Of a DNA stretch of 47,566 nucleotides, positions 6,915 to 14,207 are shown piece after piece. The stretch lies in IMG/VR virus record IMGVR_UViG_3300002098_000055, positions 1 to 47,566 of that record. One strand, given 5' to 3'. The notes beneath the pieces were generated by a model. That model worked only from the letters and a program-made list of their open reading frames with translations. It was not told the origin of the DNA and searched no databases. This DNA comes from a virus. The position numbers were made by a program, and so were the translations under genes. Each line of letters begins with the position of its first letter. The first letter of the stretch is position 1.

Positions 6915-7096
6915 TGTGCCACCCACACAGACGAGGCTGTAATATTTGTACCGTTATTAGTAAATGTCTTAACGTATGTTACGCCTTGATAGACACAGGT
7001 TATTGTTGCGACTAGCGTACCGTCATATGTGAATGTTAAGGCGAGGTCGTCAATCGGTAATTGCCCTCGGGTGCTGGTGGCTACAGTTCCGCTCAT
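6911..7096 (-). CDS. Hypothetical small protein (61 aa) at the head of the fibre array
   Basis: The ORF is coupled by ATGA overlaps to both neighbours. I recognise no motif. Confidence 0.5.
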   Translation of the reverse strand: MSGTVATSTRGQLPIDDLALTFTYDGTLVATITCVYQGVTYVKTFTNNGTNITASSVWVAQ

Positions 7097-7500
7097 TTTT
7101 TGCTCCCTTTCATAATTTGTTGGTATATCTTAGCCGCTTCAATGGGGTCGCTTACATTAATACTGATAGCGGGTTCGGTGACGTTGCAGTCAAGCTCAGG
7201 ATTGTATTTTTCAGACCATCCCGCACGGGTTTTTAAGTAAAACATAATTGCTTGGATATTGCCCGACATTGCTAGCTCATAGAGCTTTTTTGATACCCTA
7301 GCTATTGATTGGGCTTGGCCTTGGTGGAACGCTTTTCTTAGTTCAGGTTCGCGTTTTTCGGCTTTTAACCAGACCTCTTGGCTATGGCCGAAATAGTTCT
7401 GGATTAAGTATTTAGTCAGCCCAAGGCCCGCCAGCATTTTGACTTCTTTGATTTGGTCGTCGTCGACTATAAACGTGGGGGTGTTGCCATTCCTAGCCAT
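7093..7500 (-). CDS. HTH DNA-binding protein, terminase small subunit-like
   Basis: The C-terminal motif GNIQAIMFYLKTRAGWSEK resembles the ...IFWLKNR..W.DK signature common in small terminases. The N-terminus is HTH-like. Assignment is by eye only. Confidence 0.45.
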   Translation of the reverse strand: MARNGNTPTFIVDDDQIKEVKMLAGLGLTKYLIQNYFGHSQEVWLKAEKREPELRKAFHQGQAQSIARVSKKLYELAMSGNIQAIMFYLKTRAGWSEKYNPELDCNVTEPAISINVSDPIEAAKIYQQIMKGSKK

Positions 7501-7527: not shown

Positions 7528-7556
7528 AGTATATCCCTGCGTGTGTAGTCACACAA
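7528..7556 (-). promoter_or_regulatory. Candidate sigma70-type promoter for the TerS-like/fibre operon
   Basis: Minus strand reads TTGTGT-17 nt-TATACT, followed by an AGGA RBS and the ATG at 7500. Confidence 0.35.
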
Positions 7557-8835
7557 GCGTATTCATTTCGTCCCATTTTTTGCCGCTGTACTCATGAACT
7601 ACGGATTTACCAGTATAGGTTTGGTAGCGTTTAATGATGGTATCTACATATATCGGGTCTAGCTCCATCATGTAACAAGTTCGGTTTAGTTTTTCGCAAG
7701 CTATTAGCGTTGAGCCGGAGCCGCCGAAGAGGTCTGTCACTAAGCTGCTATTGGTCGTGGAGTGGTTAATAGCTCTCTCAACAAGTTCAACTGGTTTTTT
7801 GGTTGCGTGCTCTTTATCCGTTCCCATTTTTCTTTGAATGTGCCAAATATCATAATATTCTTTTTCCGATCCTTGGTTTGTATGCAATACGGGTTTTCCT
7901 TTTTTACATACGTTTATAAATTCATGACAGTATTTATAGTCGGAACCAAGGCCATGTACCATTTTGTCCCATACTATTAAATTAGAACGTTTAAAACCCG
8001 CTGTATCAATATGGGGGATAAGTTGATGGTTACGTCTCCAGTCTAAACAAATATAAGCTACCGAATCCTGTTTCATGATTATGTAATAATTGGCCGTAAA
8101 CAATGACATGAATTCTTGCCAGTCATCGTCGGTATACGAGTCATTAAACATGTTAGACAATCGACCAGATTTAGACCCTTTTGTTTCTTTCCACAGGCCA
8201 CCTGAGCCTTTTTGCGTTTCAGCAGTCATGCCGGTGTTGTACGGCGGGTCTGTAAACACCATATCCGCCAGCTTCCCATCCATCAGTATCTCAACGTCTG
8301 TAATGACCGTGCTATCCCCGCACATCAACCGATGGTTCCCTAATAGCCACACATCGCCTTTCTCCGATACCGGGACTGTTGGCGGCTCTGGTATCTCGTC
8401 AGGGTCGCCAAGCTCTTGGCCGTTTAAATCCATATCGCCCAGCATCTCGTTTAGTTCTTCAGTTGAAAACCCCGTTAGCGACATATCAAAATCGGGCGCG
8501 TTTCTGAGTTCTTCTAATTCCGCTATTAATAGTTCATGGTCCCACTCAGCGTTCATCGCTATTTTATTCGCTGCGAGTATGTAGCCTTTTTGTTTCGTAT
8601 CGTCTGCTAAGTGGTGTTGGACGATTACCGGAATAGTAGCCAGTCCCATTTTCTTTGCGGCCTCGACGCGTGCATGACCGGATAAAATCACAAAGTTAGC
8701 ATTGCATTCGACCGGCACGTTAAAGCCAAACTCCTCAATACTGTGTATCAGTTGCGCAATTTGAGGAGCGGGGTGTTTTCTTGCGTTGTTGCTGTAGTCT
8801 TTGAGCTTCGACGGCTCTAGCTGGATTATATTCAC
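7549..8835 (-). CDS. ParB-like N-terminal domain fused to an N6/N4 DNA methyltransferase
   Basis: The ParB-N-like segment is ILSGHARVEAAKKMGLATIPV. Methyltransferase motif IV is FTDPPYN and the AdoMet motif I is DLFGGSGSTLIA, in beta-class order. GTG start follows an AGGAG RBS. Confidence 0.85.
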   Translation of the reverse strand: MNIIQLEPSKLKDYSNNARKHPAPQIAQLIHSIEEFGFNVPVECNANFVILSGHARVEAAKKMGLATIPVIVQHHLADDTKQKGYILAANKIAMNAEWDHELLIAELEELRNAPDFDMSLTGFSTEELNEMLGDMDLNGQELGDPDEIPEPPTVPVSEKGDVWLLGNHRLMCGDSTVITDVEILMDGKLADMVFTDPPYNTGMTAETQKGSGGLWKETKGSKSGRLSNMFNDSYTDDDWQEFMSLFTANYYIIMKQDSVAYICLDWRRNHQLIPHIDTAGFKRSNLIVWDKMVHGLGSDYKYCHEFINVCKKGKPVLHTNQGSEKEYYDIWHIQRKMGTDKEHATKKPVELVERAINHSTTNSSLVTDLFGGSGSTLIACEKLNRTCYMMELDPIYVDTIIKRYQTYTGKSVVHEYSGKKWDEMNTLV

Positions 8836-8862
8836 AGTAAAATCTCCTAGAAAAGTTCATAT

Positions 8863-8868
8863 ATTATA
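8863..8868 (-). promoter_or_regulatory. Candidate -10 box (TATAAT) upstream of the methyltransferase gene
   Basis: A perfect TATAAT sits on the minus strand ~28 nt upstream of the GTG start. The -35 is weak. Confidence 0.3.
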
Positions 8869-8910
8869 CTTATGAGCGGGACTTGTACAGTTTTAGTGTA
8901 TGGTGCAACT

Positions 8911-9164
8911 GGTTACATTCTCGGTTACACGGGCTATAACCCAATCCCAGTATAGGTTTGAGCCATTTTCGATGTAACTCAAGGGTCAATTCCTATATAG
9001 AGAGTCGTTTTAGGCTAGAGCGCTCTAGCTCTACGGTTGTAAGAGCACTATAATACCTAATCTTAGTAATTCAGTTACACTAGTTACACTAGCTACATAA
9101 AGCCATACAGTGCTTGGCCTATATGAGTGTAACTGAAAACAATATAAGTTACATTACGTTACAC
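8911..9164. repeat. Iteron cluster: at least 8 copies of GTTACA(C/T) in both orientations (candidate replication origin / protein-binding array)
   Basis: Forward copies: 8911-8918, 8923-8930, 9073-9080, 9082-9089, 9091-9098 (degenerate), 9148-9154 and 9158-9164. Inverted copies: 8973-8978 and 9127-9135. All lie in a ~340-bp non-coding gap. Confidence 0.7.
9014..9029. repeat. Perfect 16-bp palindrome GCTAGAGCGCTCTAGC in the centre of the iteron region
   Basis: Checked pairwise over 9014-9029. Confidence 0.9.
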
Positions 9165-9174
9165 CGAGGATAAA

Positions 9175-9579
9175 ATGGAAAGTTTAGAGTACCGCTATTG
9201 TGAATTATTTGTTAAATGCTACAGCATTGCTAAACGTACCCACGAAAAGAAATACATTAAAGCCCCGCTAGACAATTGGATTATAAGTAACGGCCTTGAA
9301 TGGGGAAAAATAGGAAACCTAGCGAGGGATTGTATTGAATCTAAAACATTACCTAGCGTTAAATATAAATATTGCGCTAGAAATTATCGTTATAAGAAAT
9401 TTAAAAAAGAAGCGTTTAGTTTTATAGGTGAAGGGGTTGCGCTTATAACCCTAGAGTTAATCGCGCATCCTTGCTACTGTGGTTTTGATAAGTATGTGTC
9501 TATTGATGCGTTACCCGACAACTGGTGTCTTATTGCTGACTCCGCTTTTAGGCACAAGATGATGGATATTGCCCGCTGA
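9175..9579 (+). CDS. Hypothetical protein (134 aa), orphan plus-strand gene
   Basis: A GAGGA RBS sits 6 nt before the ATG. The ORF is AT-rich and converges on the primase gene, overlapping its 3' end by 69 nt. Confidence 0.45.
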   Translation: MESLEYRYCELFVKCYSIAKRTHEKKYIKAPLDNWIISNGLEWGKIGNLARDCIESKTLPSVKYKYCARNYRYKKFKKEAFSFIGEGVALITLELIAHPCYCGFDKYVSIDALPDNWCLIADSAFRHKMMDIAR

Positions 9580-11700
9580 GCTTCTTTTTGGTTGTTTTCC
9601 TGTTAATCTTGCGATTATCTTCCCCATTTGAGTACATTGGAAACGTGAAGGGTTTTGAAATCCTAAAGCCCTTAGTGCTTCGGTAGCTGAATAAGCTATC
9701 TTTGGCTTACTCTGCCATCCTTGCGAGAAATCAAAGAACGTATGCAGCAACTCTTCGATGGGGTTTATCTGTTCGTGGTTCCTGTTGTGTGCATTAAGTT
9801 CTGTAAACTCGTCGCTAGTCATCCATGTTTGTTCGCCTGCTGCCCATATCGCATAGACCTCCGCCCACACTTGCGCCATATCTAGCCCATGGTTGTCTTT
9901 AATCGATAATACGTGGAGCGTCCACCATCGGCGGTTTCCCGTATCGTCTACTAGAAAATTAGGGTCGTTAACTGTGGCTGCAAATACAGTACGCCGTTTT
10001 AGCACGCTATCTTTTCTTGCGTATGGCAAACGTATTTTATCAAAGTCCTCCGTTAGATAGCTTTTAATCCGGGCTATGTCAGCTTTTCTAAAAGTGCCGT
10101 CTAGCTCGCCTAGCTCCACAATCCAAAAGCTGGCTACTGTTTTAACGCAATCTTTATCCTTTGGGTCTAGGGTTGCGCCTGTTTTGACCGCTTGGCAGTC
10201 GAATGGGTCTAAAGATTTAATAAAACGTGTTTTACCGATGTTTTGGTCTCCTGCTAATACTAATACTCCGTGCGCCGAAAACCCAGTATCGGTGTGTACA
10301 GCCGCTATAGCGGATACCATCCAACGACGCATAAGTTTATAAGTTAATTCCTGATTGGTTGTTTCAAGTGTAGCTATAAATTGGTCAAGCCTAGGCACAC
10401 CATCCCAAGGTGTTTTTGTTAAACCCTCTACGATAGGGTGATAGTTTTCCCGCTGTGCTAATAAATTTAAATGGTCATCAATTCGCATGATGGGCATTTC
10501 GTTTTTCAGGGCAAGGTCTTTAATTACATTGAGCGCGAAGTTTTCCGCGTCCTCTGCAAACAGCTTGCATTTTGGGATCGTCACCTCACGGTCGCGTTTC
10601 ATGTTGTTCCATCTTGATGAAATACCAAAAATATCCAGCATAAATTTAAGGTTAGCCGATGTGTCCAGTACTTTATTGCGCGTGCTAATTTCAGGGTAGT
10701 TCATGGCGTTTAGTATTTTTGTACTTAAATTGTGTTGCACATAATCTGTACTTTTGTTATTATTCACATCGGTATGTGGTGTACCGTCATGTGAAAAAAA
10801 CTTATCCCCTCGCATCCGTAAAATGGTCGAGGGGAGATAGTCTTCCCGCTGCCACTTATCTCTCTTAAGTTTTGACAGGTTCATTAGTTCTTGAACCCGC
10901 TCACAATTACCGCCTACCAGATAATGCAATCTGTATGCTAGTGCCGCATCTGCTGCGCTGTGGTCGTATTCTTTGCCGGGTGTTTGTGTTGGGAAATGTT
11001 GGGCTAGTACATTGGAATTATTCTCCCATAGGTGCCGAATTGAAAGCACACTACCGAACGCTTCTTTTTCACTTAATGGCTTACTTAAAAACCACTCAAT
11101 TAGCTTCACGTTATCTTCAGGCGGGTTTGTGCCCGGTGCGGCTTCTGTCGTCCATTCTGCTGAACGTTCGGTTCGAGGGGTAGTATCTATCCCAAGGGCT
11201 GCAATAAACTGCTTAAGCCCTTCTGTGTGGATAGTTTCCGCATCTCCTCGTGGGTTTATCTCAGCTAATGCGCAAAAGCGCCCAGCGGTGTAAATTTCGA
11301 TGCCCAGATGGTCTAGTCGGCGGCCATCGAAGGGCGCATCGCCTTCAAATCTCGCGATTATATGCAGCCCCCTACCAGACTGAGAGGTCTCAACGTATGC
11401 CGTGGGGAAATAAGTAAGAGTATTTGTAGCTGTTTCTGTGAGTGTACCGTCTGGATTAATGCACCTGTCCAGGTCGATAAAAAAATAATTATCTCCCTCG
11501 AGTACTGCATAGCCTACGCCATAGCCCTCACCGAGCGTATCTGCTAACGCTCGAGCCGTTTCGTAGGGCATATGGATTAAAGGGTCTAATGGGTTGTGGG
11601 TGTATAAGTTTTTTGGGTCCAACGGTATTTTATCCGTCTTTCCTTTAGACGTAGGTACGTAACGACACAATAGGTATCTATTAAGTTGTGGTTTTTTCAT
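9511..11700 (-). CDS. Bifunctional DNA primase-polymerase (AEP) / VirE-D5-type helicase
   Basis: AEP motifs are FFIDLDRC (DxD) and SGRGLHII. The P-loop LAGDQNIGKT lies in a VirE-like C-terminal half. Confidence 0.85.
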   Translation of the reverse strand: MKKPQLNRYLLCRYVPTSKGKTDKIPLDPKNLYTHNPLDPLIHMPYETARALADTLGEGYGVGYAVLEGDNYFFIDLDRCINPDGTLTETATNTLTYFPTAYVETSQSGRGLHIIARFEGDAPFDGRRLDHLGIEIYTAGRFCALAEINPRGDAETIHTEGLKQFIAALGIDTTPRTERSAEWTTEAAPGTNPPEDNVKLIEWFLSKPLSEKEAFGSVLSIRHLWENNSNVLAQHFPTQTPGKEYDHSAADAALAYRLHYLVGGNCERVQELMNLSKLKRDKWQREDYLPSTILRMRGDKFFSHDGTPHTDVNNNKSTDYVQHNLSTKILNAMNYPEISTRNKVLDTSANLKFMLDIFGISSRWNNMKRDREVTIPKCKLFAEDAENFALNVIKDLALKNEMPIMRIDDHLNLLAQRENYHPIVEGLTKTPWDGVPRLDQFIATLETTNQELTYKLMRRWMVSAIAAVHTDTGFSAHGVLVLAGDQNIGKTRFIKSLDPFDCQAVKTGATLDPKDKDCVKTVASFWIVELGELDGTFRKADIARIKSYLTEDFDKIRLPYARKDSVLKRRTVFAATVNDPNFLVDDTGNRRWWTLHVLSIKDNHGLDMAQVWAEVYAIWAAGEQTWMTSDEFTELNAHNRNHEQINPIEELLHTFFDFSQGWQSKPKIAYSATEALRALGFQNPSRFQCTQMGKIIARLTGKQPKRSSAGNIHHLVPKSGVSNKTPVVG

Positions 11701-11715
11701 GCAAAAATTAATCCT

Positions 11716-12036
11716 TTAGTTTGTTAAATATTTAACTACCTTCTGTTTAAGCTCCTGCGGTAGTTGAACGGTTTCTTTTCCCCATGTTGCTAAATTTTCG
11801 GCTAGTATTGGTATAATCTCCTTTTCTATTGCGGTTGCTAAAACAATCGCGCGTAGGTTTTCGATGCTGTCGTAATAATGATTTATTAAACCACTGGCGC
11901 ACTGCATCCTATTTGCTATGGCCCGACGGGTCAACTGTCGGTAGCCTCGTTCGATGGATAAATTGATAGCAATATCAAGTATTTGCTCTTTTCGAGCGAG
12001 GGGGTTCATCCTCGCACCTTTAATTCTGATTGTCAT
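11716..12036 (-). CDS. Minimal TetR-family-like HTH regulator (106 aa; alternative start 12009)
   Basis: RKEQILDIAINLSIERGYRQLTRRAIANRMQCASGLINHYYDSIENL matches the TetR_N pattern (..ILDAA..LF.E.GY..TT...IA..AGVS.G.IYHYF.SKE.L). The protein is too short for a ligand-binding domain. Confidence 0.65.
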   Translation of the reverse strand: MTIRIKGARMNPLARKEQILDIAINLSIERGYRQLTRRAIANRMQCASGLINHYYDSIENLRAIVLATAIEKEIIPILAENLATWGKETVQLPQELKQKVVKYLTN

Positions 12037-12226: not shown

Positions 12227-12591
12227 AACGTACCCCTTCCGGTTGTAAAACAGGCGTCCCCGCCTAGTTCGTTTATGAGTTCCGCCCACGCTAATTGTGC
12301 GCGTTCTCGCTCTGTCCCTGTGTACTGCCAGCCCGCGCGTTTGACCTCGCGGGATATAAATTGACCGATGACGGCCCCGACATGCGCTTGTGTGATTATT
12401 ACAGGCCGTATGCCGATTAAATCCGCTGATTTTATAACGCGGTTTAGCTGTGCGGAGTCGTTCGCGAGTCCGAACCGTATAAATTGCCCGGATGGGGTGT
12501 AGGTGGCACCGACGTTATTCCGCCAAAGTCTGCACCCCCGTTGCGATGCTTCTAGTCTTATGCCGCTTGATATCCCTGATTCCGATGTCAT
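12223..12591 (-). CDS. VRR-NUC domain nuclease
   Basis: PD-(D/E)XK-type motifs are ADLIGIRP ... GQFISREVKR. Size and context next to the helicase fit. Confidence 0.7.
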   Translation of the reverse strand: MTSESGISSGIRLEASQRGCRLWRNNVGATYTPSGQFIRFGLANDSAQLNRVIKSADLIGIRPVIITQAHVGAVIGQFISREVKRAGWQYTGTERERAQLAWAELINELGGDACFTTGRGTL

Positions 12592-14207
12592 ATCATATTG
12601 TCCATGCTGTCAACAACCTTTGAATATAACACTGAAGCCTCAGAACTGCCAAGGGCTTGCGCACTTAAGATATCTATGTTAAAGGCGAGATAAAAACGTC
12701 GGTAGATTTCAGAATCACTTTCGCCTGTGTGCTTATAGTATCCCGCCCACTGAGCGATAGCCGCACGCAGCTCTGTTTGTATCCTGATTTTCTCAGCGTG
12801 CCGGTTTTGTATGCCACGTATTACATACGGCTCAACCCCGCGCGGGTATTTTGGCGCGTCTGTTACGTTGCGCTCAGCGTTGCCTCGCAGTGCGGCGAGC
12901 GTTTCCGCGTCGAGTTCGCATAGGTCGCCGTCTACGAATTGTGGGGCGTTGCGCTGCTGTGGTTCGTGGTAATGCCCGCAGTACGGACACTCACGTAGAA
13001 ATCGGGTAAATACGCTCAGGCATTTTAAACACGTTTTAAGCGGGATTGCGTCTTCAGGCGTTGACCGTCCGCGCCGTTCGCGTGCGTCAAGTGACCAGTT
13101 GCGTGGCGCATCGGGGAGGCCGTGGCGTGCGTAGTTGTTCACATGGTCAATAATAACGGCGTGTTGTTTGTTGTCTGAAGGTCTTAGAGCGCGTCCGAAC
13201 TGTTGGGCGAACGTGGCGTAACTCTCTGTAGGTCTGCCCATCGAAACGACTTCAATTGCTGGCACGTCTACGCCCTCGCCGAGTATATCAACGTTAACAA
13301 GCTGTAACAGTTCGCCTGCCCGAAACCGTCGCATGGCTTGCTGCCTGAGAAGCGGGGGCGTTAGGCTGCTTACGACTTCGGCGGGTACGCCGTGTTGGCG
13401 GAATTCAAGGCAGATTTCGTGCGCGGCTTTGATGTCTACCGCGAACGTCACGCCACGTTTGCCGGGCGCTATACGCAGGTAGTGCGCAACGATATCGCCT
13501 GTAATTCGTGATTTATGTACCGCAGTGCGTAGCGGGACGGGAGAGAAATCGCCGCTTGCTGTGTGTCCGACACCGGATAAATCTAGGTCGTTTGGGGGTG
13601 CGAAGATACGATAGTCACAGAGATAACCCCGCTGGATTAGCTCACGCATTGACGGCCCGGTTATCAGTACGTCGGCTAGCCCGTCACTGTGCCTACCAAG
13701 CCCGCGCCCGTCTGCGCGTACAGGTGTTGCGGTTGGGAAGAATCCGCGAGCGTTGGGGAACAGTTGGCACGCTCGTCCCCACAGATTTTTAGCTTGGATA
13801 TGATGCGATTCGTCAATTATTTGTACAGTTACGCGTTTGAACCACGGGGTATCCGCTGGCATACGTGTGAGAGTTTGAACCGAAGCGACAAAACACGTCG
13901 CATTGGGGTCATAAAATCCGCGTTGGTGGGCGATATGATGTGTGGCTACAATCTCGCGTACTGTAGAGCGCGGGGCGATAATATTATGCCGTATGCCGAA
14001 ACCTGCTAGTGTGAGTGAGAGCTGGGATACAAGTTCGGTACGATGCGCTATAACCACAGAATACCCGGTGTGCTGCTGTATGAGCGAGGTTATAATTAGG
14101 CTCTTGCCTCCGCCTGTACTGAGCTGGCCGAGAACGTTCACGTGTCCAGCGTTCCACGCCTCGAGCGTTTGTTGTACCATGTCCCGCTGATAATCCCTGA
14201 GCTGCAT
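12588..14207 (-). CDS. Superfamily 2 DNA helicase (DEAD/DEAH, res-subunit-like) with C-terminal zinc ribbon
   Basis: Walker A is LSTGGGKS and DExH is IIDESHH. The C-terminal ribbon is CLKC...CPYCGH. Confidence 0.85.
   Translation of the reverse strand: MQLRDYQRDMVQQTLEAWNAGHVNVLGQLSTGGGKSLIITSLIQQHTGYSVVIAHRTELVSQLSLTLAGFGIRHNIIAPRSTVREIVATHHIAHQRGFYDPNATCFVASVQTLTRMPADTPWFKRVTVQIIDESHHIQAKNLWGRACQLFPNARGFFPTATPVRADGRGLGRHSDGLADVLITGPSMRELIQRGYLCDYRIFAPPNDLDLSGVGHTASGDFSPVPLRTAVHKSRITGDIVAHYLRIAPGKRGVTFAVDIKAAHEICLEFRQHGVPAEVVSSLTPPLLRQQAMRRFRAGELLQLVNVDILGEGVDVPAIEVVSMGRPTESYATFAQQFGRALRPSDNKQHAVIIDHVNNYARHGLPDAPRNWSLDARERRGRSTPEDAIPLKTCLKCLSVFTRFLRECPYCGHYHEPQQRNAPQFVDGDLCELDAETLAALRGNAERNVTDAPKYPRGVEPYVIRGIQNRHAEKIRIQTELRAAIAQWAGYYKHTGESDSEIYRRFYLAFNIDILSAQALGSSEASVLYSKVVDSMDNMI

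What the first reader, a model, noticed from the sequence alone, without database searches (positions are those of the whole stretch)
8911..9164. GTTACA(C/T) iteron cluster with a central 16-bp palindrome next to the primase-helicase: candidate origin of replication
The only large non-coding stretch on the minus arm (8836-9174) holds at least eight GTTACA(C/T) repeats in both orientations. A tandem trio sits at 9073-9098 (AGTTACACT AGTTACACT AGCTACATA) and its inverted partner CAGTTACAC at 9127-9135. The perfect palindrome GCTAGAGCGCTCTAGC is at 9014-9029. The region lies between the D5/VirE-type primase-helicase gene and the ParB-N/methyltransferase gene. By analogy, the satellite phage P4 alpha primase-helicase binds octamer iterons in ori and crr. 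An alternative reading is that these are parS-like sites for the ParB-N domain, or operator sites for the adjacent orphan gene at 9175.
Basis: partly seen in the sequence, partly recalled or inferred. Interest (0 to 1): 0.62.

Follow-up and report, generated by a model that had tools for sequence, protein, structure and literature searches.

The report
Phage replication origin with iterons
The repeat-filled gap next to this uncultivated phage's primase-helicase gene is very probably its replication origin, built like those of staphylococcal pathogenicity islands, and relatives suggest that one amino acid in the helicase tail sets which repeat is recognised.

Summary
Eight of the genome's 12 perfect GTTACAY sites lie in 8912-9164, where about 0.09 are expected. 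Two degenerate copies and the 16-bp palindrome are also there. No other region of this 47.5-kb circular phage genome has a comparable repeat cluster.

Sixteen syntenic relatives keep the same gap downstream of the PrimPol-VapE primase-helicase. The layout is two iteron clusters around a centre, a trio at 9-bp spacing, then one inverted copy, then a pair. It is best kept among the closer relatives. The iteron sequence changes between genomes:
- (A)GTTACAY in 9 genomes
- (A)GTGTCAY in 5
- GGTGTGA in 1
- TCTCTAAG in 2

The TetR-like, TerS-like and ParB_N proteins do not change with it, and the orphan ORF is often absent. What does change is the helicase half. TCTCTAAG genomes carry a different SF3 helicase (DUF5906). 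Within the VapE type, one residue in a predicted C-terminal winged helix (N711) is N/S/C with GTTACAY and Arg with GTGT-core iterons, in 15 of 15 genomes, two of them predicted beforehand.

The helicase is a sequence homologue of SaPI1 Rep1, whose origin has the same design. Verdict: a new member of the SaPI/P4-type origins, with a candidate late promoter at its edge.

The parts
8861..8895 (-). Candidate late promoter for the ParB_N-MTase/TerS/structural operon. The conserved box TTGTACAGTTTTA (8883-8895) holds a -35-like TGTACA, and a -10-like TAATAT/TATAAT lies at 8861-8868 on the minus strand.
   Evidence: The box is invariant or nearly so in the window, L001, L002, L008, L010 and L021-L026. 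It is unique in the genome. TGTACA-N17-TA(T/C)A(A/C)T is kept in relatives, as read from the sequences. Its function is inferred.
8903..8978 (.). Left iteron cluster: 8903-8909 (-, degenerate GTGCAAC), 8912-8918 (+), 8924-8930 (+), 8972-8978 (-).
   Evidence: Relatives have equivalent clusters at the same offset from the promoter box.
8938..8959 (+). Conserved 22-bp box AACCCAATCCCAGTATAGGTTT, which is itself a small inverted repeat.
   Evidence: It matches the family consensus at 20/22 positions, against at most 15/22 in shuffles. It is conserved across iteron types A, B and D and is unique in the genome.
8979..9072 (.). Central region, the presumed melting zone, at 61% A+T. It contains the perfect 16-bp palindrome GCTAGAGCGCTCTAGC at 9014-9029.
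   Evidence: In relatives the same position holds other palindromes (GTATAAC-N-GTTATAC), (CTGTAG)n arrays or very AT-rich DNA.
9073..9099 (+). Tandem iteron trio at 9-bp spacing: AGTTACACT AGTTACACT AGCTACATA.
   Evidence: A positionally homologous trio occurs in many of the relatives, each with its own iteron sequence.
9099..9120 (-). Second, inverted and weaker copy of the 22-bp box (AAAGCCATACAGTGCTTGGCCT).
   Evidence: It matches the reverse-complement consensus at 17/22 positions. The inverted pair is clearer in L021 (21 and 22/22), L022, L023, L001 and L026.
9127..9164 (.). Right distal iterons: 9127-9133 (-), 9148-9154 (+), 9158-9164 (+). The last pair abuts the ribosome-binding site of the orphan ORF.
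   Evidence: The distance from the trio to the inverted copy is 52 bp in the window, L021, L023, L025 and L026, and 54 bp in L001.
9175..9579 (+). Accessory orphan gene (134 aa, Cys-rich, predicted helical bundle). It is inserted between the origin and the primase-helicase and overlaps that gene's 3' end in antisense.
   Evidence: Homologues exist in L001, L021, L022, L023, L026, L028 and L032, with a frameshifted remnant in L002. There is none in 8 other loci. AF2 gives pLDDT 80, with no Pfam, PHROG, PADLOC or PDB match.
9511..11700 (-). Primase-helicase, the proposed initiator: an AEP PrimPol with NrS-1-type HBD at residues 1-~295, a VapE-type SF3 helicase (Walker A at residue 484), and a C-terminal winged helix.
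   Evidence: Pfam PF22763 and PF05272. PDB sequence hits are 7pds_A SaPI1 Rep1 (8e-19) and NrS-1 primase (about 1e-11).
9556..9762 (-). Region coding the predicted winged-helix domain (residues 647-715). The recognition helix is residues 686-700. The wing residue N711 (codon 9568-9570) co-varies with iteron type.
   Evidence: In the AF2 model this part has pLDDT 85-91 and H-S-H-H-S-S topology. Covariation is shown.

Best explanation
The gap 8836-9174 is the phage's origin of replication, of the kind served by a self-loading SF3 helicase-initiator.

Proposed mechanism (inferred, not shown):
1. The primase-helicase encoded just upstream (9511-11700) recognises the 7-bp iterons (A)GTTACAY through its C-terminal winged-helix domain.
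2. It assembles on the two iteron clusters and melts the central region, which carries the palindrome.
3. Its own PrimPol domain then primes DNA synthesis, and the phage family-A polymerase takes over.
4. The two inverted copies of a conserved 22-bp box that bracket the centre may mark where priming starts.

The leftmost 60 bp of the gap additionally hold the probable promoter of the late operon (DNA modification, packaging, structural genes). Initiator binding could therefore also influence late transcription.

What is shown here: the repeats, their conservation, their co-variation with the helicase half, and the homology to SaPI Rep. Binding, melting and initiation are inferred.
For: 1. Enrichment: 8 of 12 genomic GTTACAY sites lie in 253 bp, and this is the only such cluster. 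The 7-mer is under-represented elsewhere, 4 observed against about 13 expected from a Markov-4 model.
2. Conserved synteny and layout: sixteen syntenic relatives keep a 350-500-bp gap in the same place, most with the same cluster layout and some with near-identical spacing.
3. Concerted change: the iteron sequence changes in every copy of an array at once. GTTACAY becomes GTGTCAY at positionally homologous sites.
4. Specific co-variation: the flanking proteins stay the same (TetR-like 78-79%, TerS 80-82%, endonuclease 82-88%, PrimPol domain 71-73% identical, with identical HTH motifs). Only the helicase half is exchanged in the TCTCTAAG genomes, with no tblastn hit and Pfam DUF5906 in place of VapE.
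5. Wing residue: within the VapE type, residue 711 is N/S/C in all 9 TTACA genomes and Arg in all 6 GTGT-core genomes. It is the only column whose GTGT state is a single residue. The tree needs at least 3-4 independent switches. Two genomes were predicted from protein sequence before their DNA was fetched, and both were correct.
6. Fold: residue 711 sits in the beta-hairpin wing of a confidently modelled H-S-H-H-S-S winged helix. The Foldseek hits are weak, but nearly all are winged-helix proteins.
7. Homology: the helicase domain matches SaPI1 Rep1 (7pds_A, E 8e-19) and the PrimPol matches NrS-1. SaPI Reps bind 6-12 short iterons placed immediately downstream of rep, in two sets around an AT-rich centre with opposed orientations (PMC9371898).
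Against:
- Cumulative GC skew follows gene orientation and shows no inflection at 9 kb.
- In this genome the centre is only moderately AT-rich (61% against 54% for the genome) and is not the least stable DNA in the genome.
- The covariation rests on 3-4 independent contrasts, so a sign test cannot reach 0.05. Two other alignment columns also separate the two types.
- The winged-helix assignment has no significant structural match.
- Proteins encoded outside the fetched 7-14-kb loci were not compared, so another co-varying binder elsewhere in the genome is not excluded.
Confidence: 0.75

Rival explanations
1. The iterons are mainly transcriptional control sites. A phage protein, possibly the primase-helicase itself, binds them to switch the adjacent late promoter and/or the orphan-gene promoter, and replication starts elsewhere.
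For: The gap is the early/late boundary. The unique conserved TTGTACAGTTTTA box with a -10-like element lies 8-20 bp from the left iterons. The right-most iteron pair abuts the orphan ORF's ribosome-binding site. GC skew gives no support for an origin here.
Against: The right cluster lies more than 200 bp from the late promoter, and its geometry is kept in relatives that have no orphan ORF. The two-cluster-plus-centre design, and the co-variation with an SF3 helicase homologous to SaPI Rep, are what an origin predicts. The TetR-like repressor keeps an identical HTH across iteron types. This reading is not exclusive of the origin reading.
Confidence: 0.1
2. The repeats are a packaging recognition site (pac or cosB-like) bound by the TerS-like protein encoded downstream. 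The palindrome would be the cleavage site.
For: The gap heads the operon that contains the TerS-like gene (phrog_309, 5e-11). In L002 and L027 TerS follows the gap directly. Lambda cosB has repeated R sites in both orientations next to Nu1 (general knowledge).
Against: TerS is 78-82% identical, with an identical HTH (LAGLGLTKYLIQNYFGHS), in genomes whose iterons are GTTACAY, GTGTCAY or TCTCTAAG. The palindrome is not conserved. The sequence-conserved boxes, as opposed to the iterons, could still serve packaging.
Confidence: 0.04
3. The repeats are operators of the adjacent orphan gene product (9175-9579), which autoregulates.
For: The orphan gene is transcribed divergently from the gap. Between the window and L001 it is the least conserved neighbour, at 34% identity.
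Against: The gene is absent from L008, L010, L024, L025, L027, L029, L030 and L031, which all have full iteron arrays, and it is a frameshifted remnant in L002. The L001 (GTGTCAY) protein is 59% identical to that of L022 (GTTACAY) but only 34% to the window's. The predicted fold is a helical bundle with no DNA-binding match.
Confidence: 0.02
4. The repeats are parS-like centromere sites for the ParB_N domain of the neighbouring methyltransferase.
For: Adjacency to a ParB_N-containing gene.
Against: Only the ParB N-terminal domain is present, scoring below the Pfam cut-off in the window, and no ParB HTH/DNA-binding domain was found. The ParB_N gene is missing in L002 and L027, yet iterons remain. 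ParB_N is 62-70% identical across unrelated iteron types. No column in it separates the types.
Confidence: 0.02

Closest known systems
SaPI replication origins with Rep / PriRep self-loading helicases (Staphylococcus aureus pathogenicity islands; PMC9371898)
   Same: The initiator is an SF3 (VapE-family) helicase, fused to or paired with a primase, and is directly homologous here (7pds_A, E 8e-19). Recognition is by a C-terminal winged-helix domain. There are 6-12 short iterons downstream of the initiator gene, in two sets around a central region, with copies in opposite orientation on each side. Iteron specificity differs between related elements.
   Different: This is a complete contractile-tailed phage genome of a Gram-negative-type lineage, not a satellite. 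The iterons are 7-9 bp rather than 5-6 bp. The primase is an NrS-1-type AEP PrimPol with an HBD. The origin also has a conserved inverted pair of 22-bp boxes and a palindrome or microsatellite centre. In this genome an accessory gene separates the origin from the initiator gene. Binding has not been tested.
Satellite phage P4 alpha protein with ori and crr (own knowledge: Ziegelin et al. 1993; Yeo et al. 2002, PDB 1KA8)
   Same: P4 alpha is a multifunctional primase-helicase whose C-terminal winged helix binds octamer iterons.
   Different: P4 needs two separated iteron regions (ori and crr), whereas this genome has a single cluster. The P4 primase is of the DnaG/toprim type and its helicase is of the D5 type. 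No sequence hit to P4 alpha was obtained in the PDB searches.
Deep-sea vent phage NrS-1 primase-polymerase (gp28) and its proposed origin (PMC7102993, PMC8718748)
   Same: Same domain order: AEP PrimPol, HBD, then SF3 helicase ring with a C-terminal 'tail'. The N-terminal domain is homologous (E about 1e-11). The NrS-1 genome has two inverted copies of an 8-nt PrimPol recognition sequence at mid-genome, proposed as its origin. That parallels the inverted 22-bp box pair here.
   Different: NrS-1 has no described iteron array. Its recognition sequences (TTTGGTTA, GTG) are not those of the boxes here. The role of its helicase tail in origin recognition is unknown.
Iteron plasmid origins (RepA/Pi/TrfA type; PMC4980987)
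   Same: Directly repeated initiator-binding sites lie next to a melting region.
   Different: Plasmid iterons are 17-22 bp, are bound by a WH1-WH2 Rep that recruits the host DnaB, and are accompanied by DnaA boxes. Here the iterons are 7-9 bp, the initiator is itself the helicase, and there is no DnaA-box cluster.

Membership tests
SaPI/P4-type origin served by a self-loading SF3 helicase-initiator | The initiator is an SF3 helicase homologous to Rep/alpha and encoded next to the origin. | tested here: met
   Pfam VapE-like domain at 4e-50. phmmer hit to SaPI1 Rep1 (7pds_A) at 8e-19 over residues 408-595. The profile of residues 560-729 hits 7pds_A at 4e-5.
SaPI/P4-type origin served by a self-loading SF3 helicase-initiator | A C-terminal winged-helix domain that reads the iterons. 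| tested here: inconclusive
   The AF2 model gives H-S-H-H-S-S topology with pLDDT 85-91 for residues ~647-715. The top Foldseek hits are winged-helix proteins (MarR, Fur, ArsR, MecI, ORC2 WHD), but all have E > 0.2.
SaPI/P4-type origin served by a self-loading SF3 helicase-initiator | Six to twelve short iterons located downstream of the initiator gene. | tested here: met
   There are 8 perfect and 2 degenerate 7-bp iterons in 8903-9164. Relatives have 6-12 copies per gap. In the window an accessory ORF of 405 bp intervenes. In relatives without it, the array starts within about 100 bp of the stop codon.
SaPI/P4-type origin served by a self-loading SF3 helicase-initiator | Two iteron sets flank an AT-rich centre, with opposed orientations on each side. 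| tested here: met
   The left set reads < > > < and the right set reads > > > < > >. The centre is 61% A+T here and far more AT-rich in L008, L010, L025 and L026.
SaPI/P4-type origin served by a self-loading SF3 helicase-initiator | The initiator binds its cognate iterons specifically. | not testable with these tools
   Only indirect evidence exists: the helicase-half swap goes with the TCTCTAAG iterons, and wing residue 711 co-varies with the iteron core in 15/15 genomes, including 2 prospective predictions.
SaPI/P4-type origin served by a self-loading SF3 helicase-initiator | Replication initiates at the site. | not testable with these tools
P4 ori + crr bipartite origin | A second, distant iteron cluster (crr) is required in cis. 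| tested here: not met
   No other cluster of the iteron or of any 6-8-mer occurs in the genome. The four other GTTACAY sites are isolated.
Plasmid-type iteron origin (RepA/Pi/TrfA) | 17-22-bp iterons with DnaA boxes. | tested here: not met
   The iterons are 7-9 bp at 9-12-bp spacing. DnaA-box matches are at chance level, with none inside the array.
ParB/parS partition site | A ParB protein with an HTH DNA-binding domain and cognate palindromic parS sites. | tested here: not met
   Only the ParB_N domain is present. The gene is absent in L002 and L027, which still have iterons. There is no co-variation.
Terminase recognition site (cosB / pac) | The repeats are recognised by the small terminase, so repeat and TerS specificity should go together. 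| tested here: not met
   The TerS HTH is identical in genomes with three unrelated iteron sequences.

The most novel reading that the evidence does not exclude
The origin may be two-tiered. Variable iterons would be read by the helicase's winged helix, with specificity toggled repeatedly in evolution by a single wing residue (N/S/C reads GT-TA-CAY, Arg reads GT-GT-CAY). An inverted pair of conserved 22-bp boxes (8938-8959 and 9099-9120) would be read by the equally conserved PrimPol/HBD domain as the two start sites of bidirectional DNA-primed synthesis. If so, this would be a natural system in which helicase loading sites and PrimPol initiation sites are both visible in one origin, and origin specificity would be re-programmable by one substitution.
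Probability: 0.25. Interest if true: 0.7.

Novelty: new member of a known kind. Interest (0 to 1): 0.5.

Why it matters
No origin has been described for this widespread but uncultivated group of 40-47-kb phages with NrS-1-like PrimPol-helicases. Placing the origin gives a concrete target for plasmid-type replication assays and for in-vitro work on how a PrimPol-SF3 fusion starts replication.

The natural series of matched initiator/iteron pairs is a ready-made experiment on origin specificity and on replicon incompatibility between co-infecting relatives. It offers three iteron families, one candidate specificity residue, and one whole-domain swap.

The origin also abuts the single candidate late promoter and a variable DNA-modification cassette. 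That makes the locus a hub for module exchange.

Tried and rejected
- Reading GTTACA as -35 hexamers: only 2-3 sites have a passable -10 at 16-18 bp, and the promoter scan was at chance level, 4 found against 3.1 expected.
- Known RNA family: none at E <= 1.
- Host DnaA boxes: at chance level.
- TetR-like protein as binder: one helix-1 column (N) separated types A and B. However, L008 and L010 carry the same N and an identical HTH with TCTCTAAG iterons.
- NrS-1 recognition sequences (TTTGGTTA, GTG) as an explanation of the iterons: rejected, because the PrimPol domain is conserved in genomes with unrelated iterons.
- GC skew: it follows gene orientation only.
- Duplex stability: the gap is AT-enriched but is not the genome's minimum.
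- Close phage records: megablast against GenBank phages found nothing. Protein-level relatives there (Mica, ep3) are too distant and are organised differently.
- The metagenome scan added no usable locus.

Full report
**What the window is.** The window is a complete 47,566-bp phage genome.

The finding lies in the leftward arm. Transcription there runs in this order:
- SNF2-type helicase (12588-14207)
- endonuclease
- TetR-like protein (11716-12036)
- primase-helicase (9511-11700)
- the gap (8836-9174)
- ParB_N + N6/N4 methyltransferase (7549-8835)
- TerS-like protein (7093-7500)
- fibre genes, then TerL and portal

A 134-aa ORF (9175-9579) on the opposite strand sits between the gap and the primase-helicase and overlaps its 3' end.

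**Observation.** GTTACAY occurs 12 times in the genome, and 8 of those are in 8912-9164. About 0.09 would be expected there. One-mismatch copies at 8903-8909 and 9092-9098 bring the array to ten.

The array has three parts:
- Left cluster, reading < > > <.
- A 94-bp centre with the perfect palindrome GCTAGAGCGCTCTAGC (9014-9029).
- Right cluster: a 9-bp-spaced trio, an inverted copy 52 bp further on, then a 10-bp-spaced pair.

No other 300-bp window of the genome holds more than 5 copies of any hexamer. Outside the gap the 7-mer is under-represented, 4 observed against about 13 expected. A 16-bp palindrome somewhere in 47 kb is not unusual (two found, 0.71 expected), but one at the centre of the array is.

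**Relatives.** There is no close match in GenBank phages. Sixteen syntenic loci were recovered:
- IMG/VR contigs: L001, L002, L008, L010
- contigs behind protein homologues: L021-L032

All have the order TetR-like, primase-helicase, 350-500-bp gap, (DNA-modification genes), TerS-like. Every gap carries 6-12 copies of a short repeat in both orientations. Where the anchor box is recognisable, the layout matches closely: trio at about +200-230 from a conserved TTGTACAGTTTTA box, inverted copy about 52 bp after the trio starts, pair about 21 bp after that.

The repeat itself differs between genomes:
- (A)GTTACAY in the window, L021-L027 and L029
- (A)GTGTCAY in L001, L002, L028, L031 and L032
- GGTGTGA in L030
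- TCTCTAAG in L008 and L010

In alignments of the gaps, GTTACAY and GTGTCAY copies occupy the same columns. Whole arrays have therefore switched in concert. That is the signature of sites read by one specific, co-evolving protein.

**Which protein binds the iterons.**
- *TerS-like and TetR-like proteins.* Both keep identical helix-turn-helix segments in GTTACAY, GTGTCAY and TCTCTAAG genomes.
- *ParB_N.* It has no DNA-binding HTH. It is missing from L002 and L027 and does not co-vary with the iterons.
- *The orphan ORF.* It is absent from eight iteron-bearing loci and is a frameshifted remnant in L002. Its similarity cuts across iteron types. Its confident AF2 model is a helical bundle with no structural match.
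- *The helicase half of the primase-helicase.* This is the one component that does change. In L008 and L010 the PrimPol domain is 71-73% identical to the window's, but everything after residue ~300 is replaced by a DUF5906-type SF3 helicase with no BLAST similarity. These are the TCTCTAAG genomes.

Among the 15 VapE-type proteins, three alignment columns separate TTACA from GTGT genomes. Only one has a single residue in the GTGT set. That column is window residue 711, which is N/S/C against Arg.

A tree built without the C-terminal domain needs at least 3-4 switches of iteron type. L001, L002 and L028 each pair most closely with a GTTACAY genome.

Before fetching their DNA I recorded a prediction that P0014 and P0027, both with Arg, would carry GTGT-core iterons. 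They do. With only 3-4 independent contrasts the association cannot be formally significant. It is nonetheless specific and prospective. It is also chemically sensible, since Arg appears where a G appears in the iteron.

**Structure and homology.** AF2 models residues ~647-715 with pLDDT 85-91 as helix-strand-helix-helix-strand-strand. The recognition helix is residues 686-700, and residue 711 sits at the start of the second wing strand. Foldseek returns only weak hits, but almost all are winged-helix DNA-binding domains.

By sequence, the helicase domain matches SaPI1 Rep1 (7pds_A, 8e-19) and the N-terminus matches NrS-1 primase. 7PDS is the Rep1-DNA complex of PMC9371898.

That paper describes SaPI origins as follows. 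They have 6-12 penta- or hexanucleotide iterons immediately downstream of rep. Half of the iterons lie on each side of an AT-rich centre. At least two on each side point in opposite directions. They are read by the winged helix of a self-loading helicase. The element here fits that description point by point.

**Other conserved parts.** A 22-bp box, AACCCAAKCCCAGTATRGGTTT, lies between the left iterons (8938-8959). It recurs inverted after the trio (9099-9120, weaker). The pair is clear in L001, L021, L022, L023 and L026, and a single copy survives in the TCTCTAAG genomes. The box is unique in the genome.

Because it is conserved together with the PrimPol domain and not with the helicase half, I suggest it is where the PrimPol starts synthesis. 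The two inverted recognition sequences proposed as the NrS-1 origin are a precedent (PMC7102993). This is inference only.

The TTGTACAGTTTTA box (8883-8895) is also unique. It has a -10-like hexamer 17 bp downstream on the minus strand, so it is best read as the promoter of the long late operon.

The centre is not conserved in sequence. Relatives have GTATAAC-N-GTTATAC palindromes, (CTGTAG)n or (CTGTAGCG)n arrays, or very AT-rich DNA there. That suits a melting or extrusion zone rather than a protein site.

**Limits.**
- Nothing was tested biochemically.
- GC skew follows transcription and is silent on the question.
- The centre of this particular genome is only 61% A+T.
- Only 7-14 kb around each relative's gene was compared.

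**Verdict.** The element is a new member of the SaPI/P4 kind of origin, with testable extras: a candidate single-residue specificity switch and a candidate pair of PrimPol start sites.

Noticed in passing
window 7549-8835; L001 9069-10237; L008 3824-4992; L025 6089-7695; L029 6154-7353: The first gene after the origin and promoter always begins with a ParB_N domain, but its partner varies. It is fused to an N6/N4 methyltransferase in the window, L029 and L030. It is followed by a separate Mom-family protein in L001, L008, L010, L021-L024, L026, L028 and L031, and by an acetyltransferase-like 357-aa protein in L025. The whole cassette is absent in L002 and L027. ParB_N looks like a common adaptor for exchangeable DNA-modification enzymes.
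   Followed up: partly
window 9175-9579 (+): The orphan 134-aa protein belongs to a small family of 100-179 aa with an internal duplication and conserved Y-x-Y-C, GNLARD and H-P-C motifs. AF2 predicts a confident helical bundle (pLDDT 80, pTM 0.76) with no PDB, Pfam, PHROG or PADLOC match. It is always antisense to, and overlapping, the last 8-28 codons of the primase-helicase gene.
   Followed up: partly
window 9511-11700 versus L008/L010 1128-3434: There is domain-level mosaicism inside one gene. The PrimPol+HBD half is 71-73% identical, but the helicase half is exchanged (VapE versus DUF5906), with the junction at the linker around residues 290-300.
   Followed up: yes
L002 8634-9138: An extra ~540 bp lies between the conserved promoter box and TerS. 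It carries three tandem 30-bp repeats (CTACACGCTACAGCTCCAAGAGCTTAAAAG) whose function is unknown. The true iteron array lies nearer the primase-helicase.
   Followed up: partly
L001 8829-8873; L023 origin centre: Microsatellite-like arrays, (CAGCTA)n of about 8 units in L001 and (CTGTAGCG)n in L023, occupy the position of the window's palindrome. The origin centres appear prone to slippage.
   Followed up: no
window genome-wide: GTTACAY is under-represented outside the origin, 4 sites against about 13 expected from a 4th-order Markov model. The bare hexamer GTTACA is not (32 against 37). This may reflect selection against stray initiator sites.
   Followed up: partly
L024, L008, L010, L031: first ~40 bp after the primase-helicase stop codon: In relatives without the orphan ORF, a GC-rich hairpin followed by a T-run lies directly after the primase-helicase gene (for example GGGC-GATGAA-GCCC TTTT in L024). 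This is a likely terminator of the early leftward operon. In the window that position is occupied by the orphan ORF.
   Followed up: no
protein P0001 (identical to window 9511-11700): The protein database lists the identical primase-helicase on 4 contigs, the longest of 80,830 bp. That is longer than this genome, so it may be a concatemer or an integrated or co-assembled copy.
   Followed up: no
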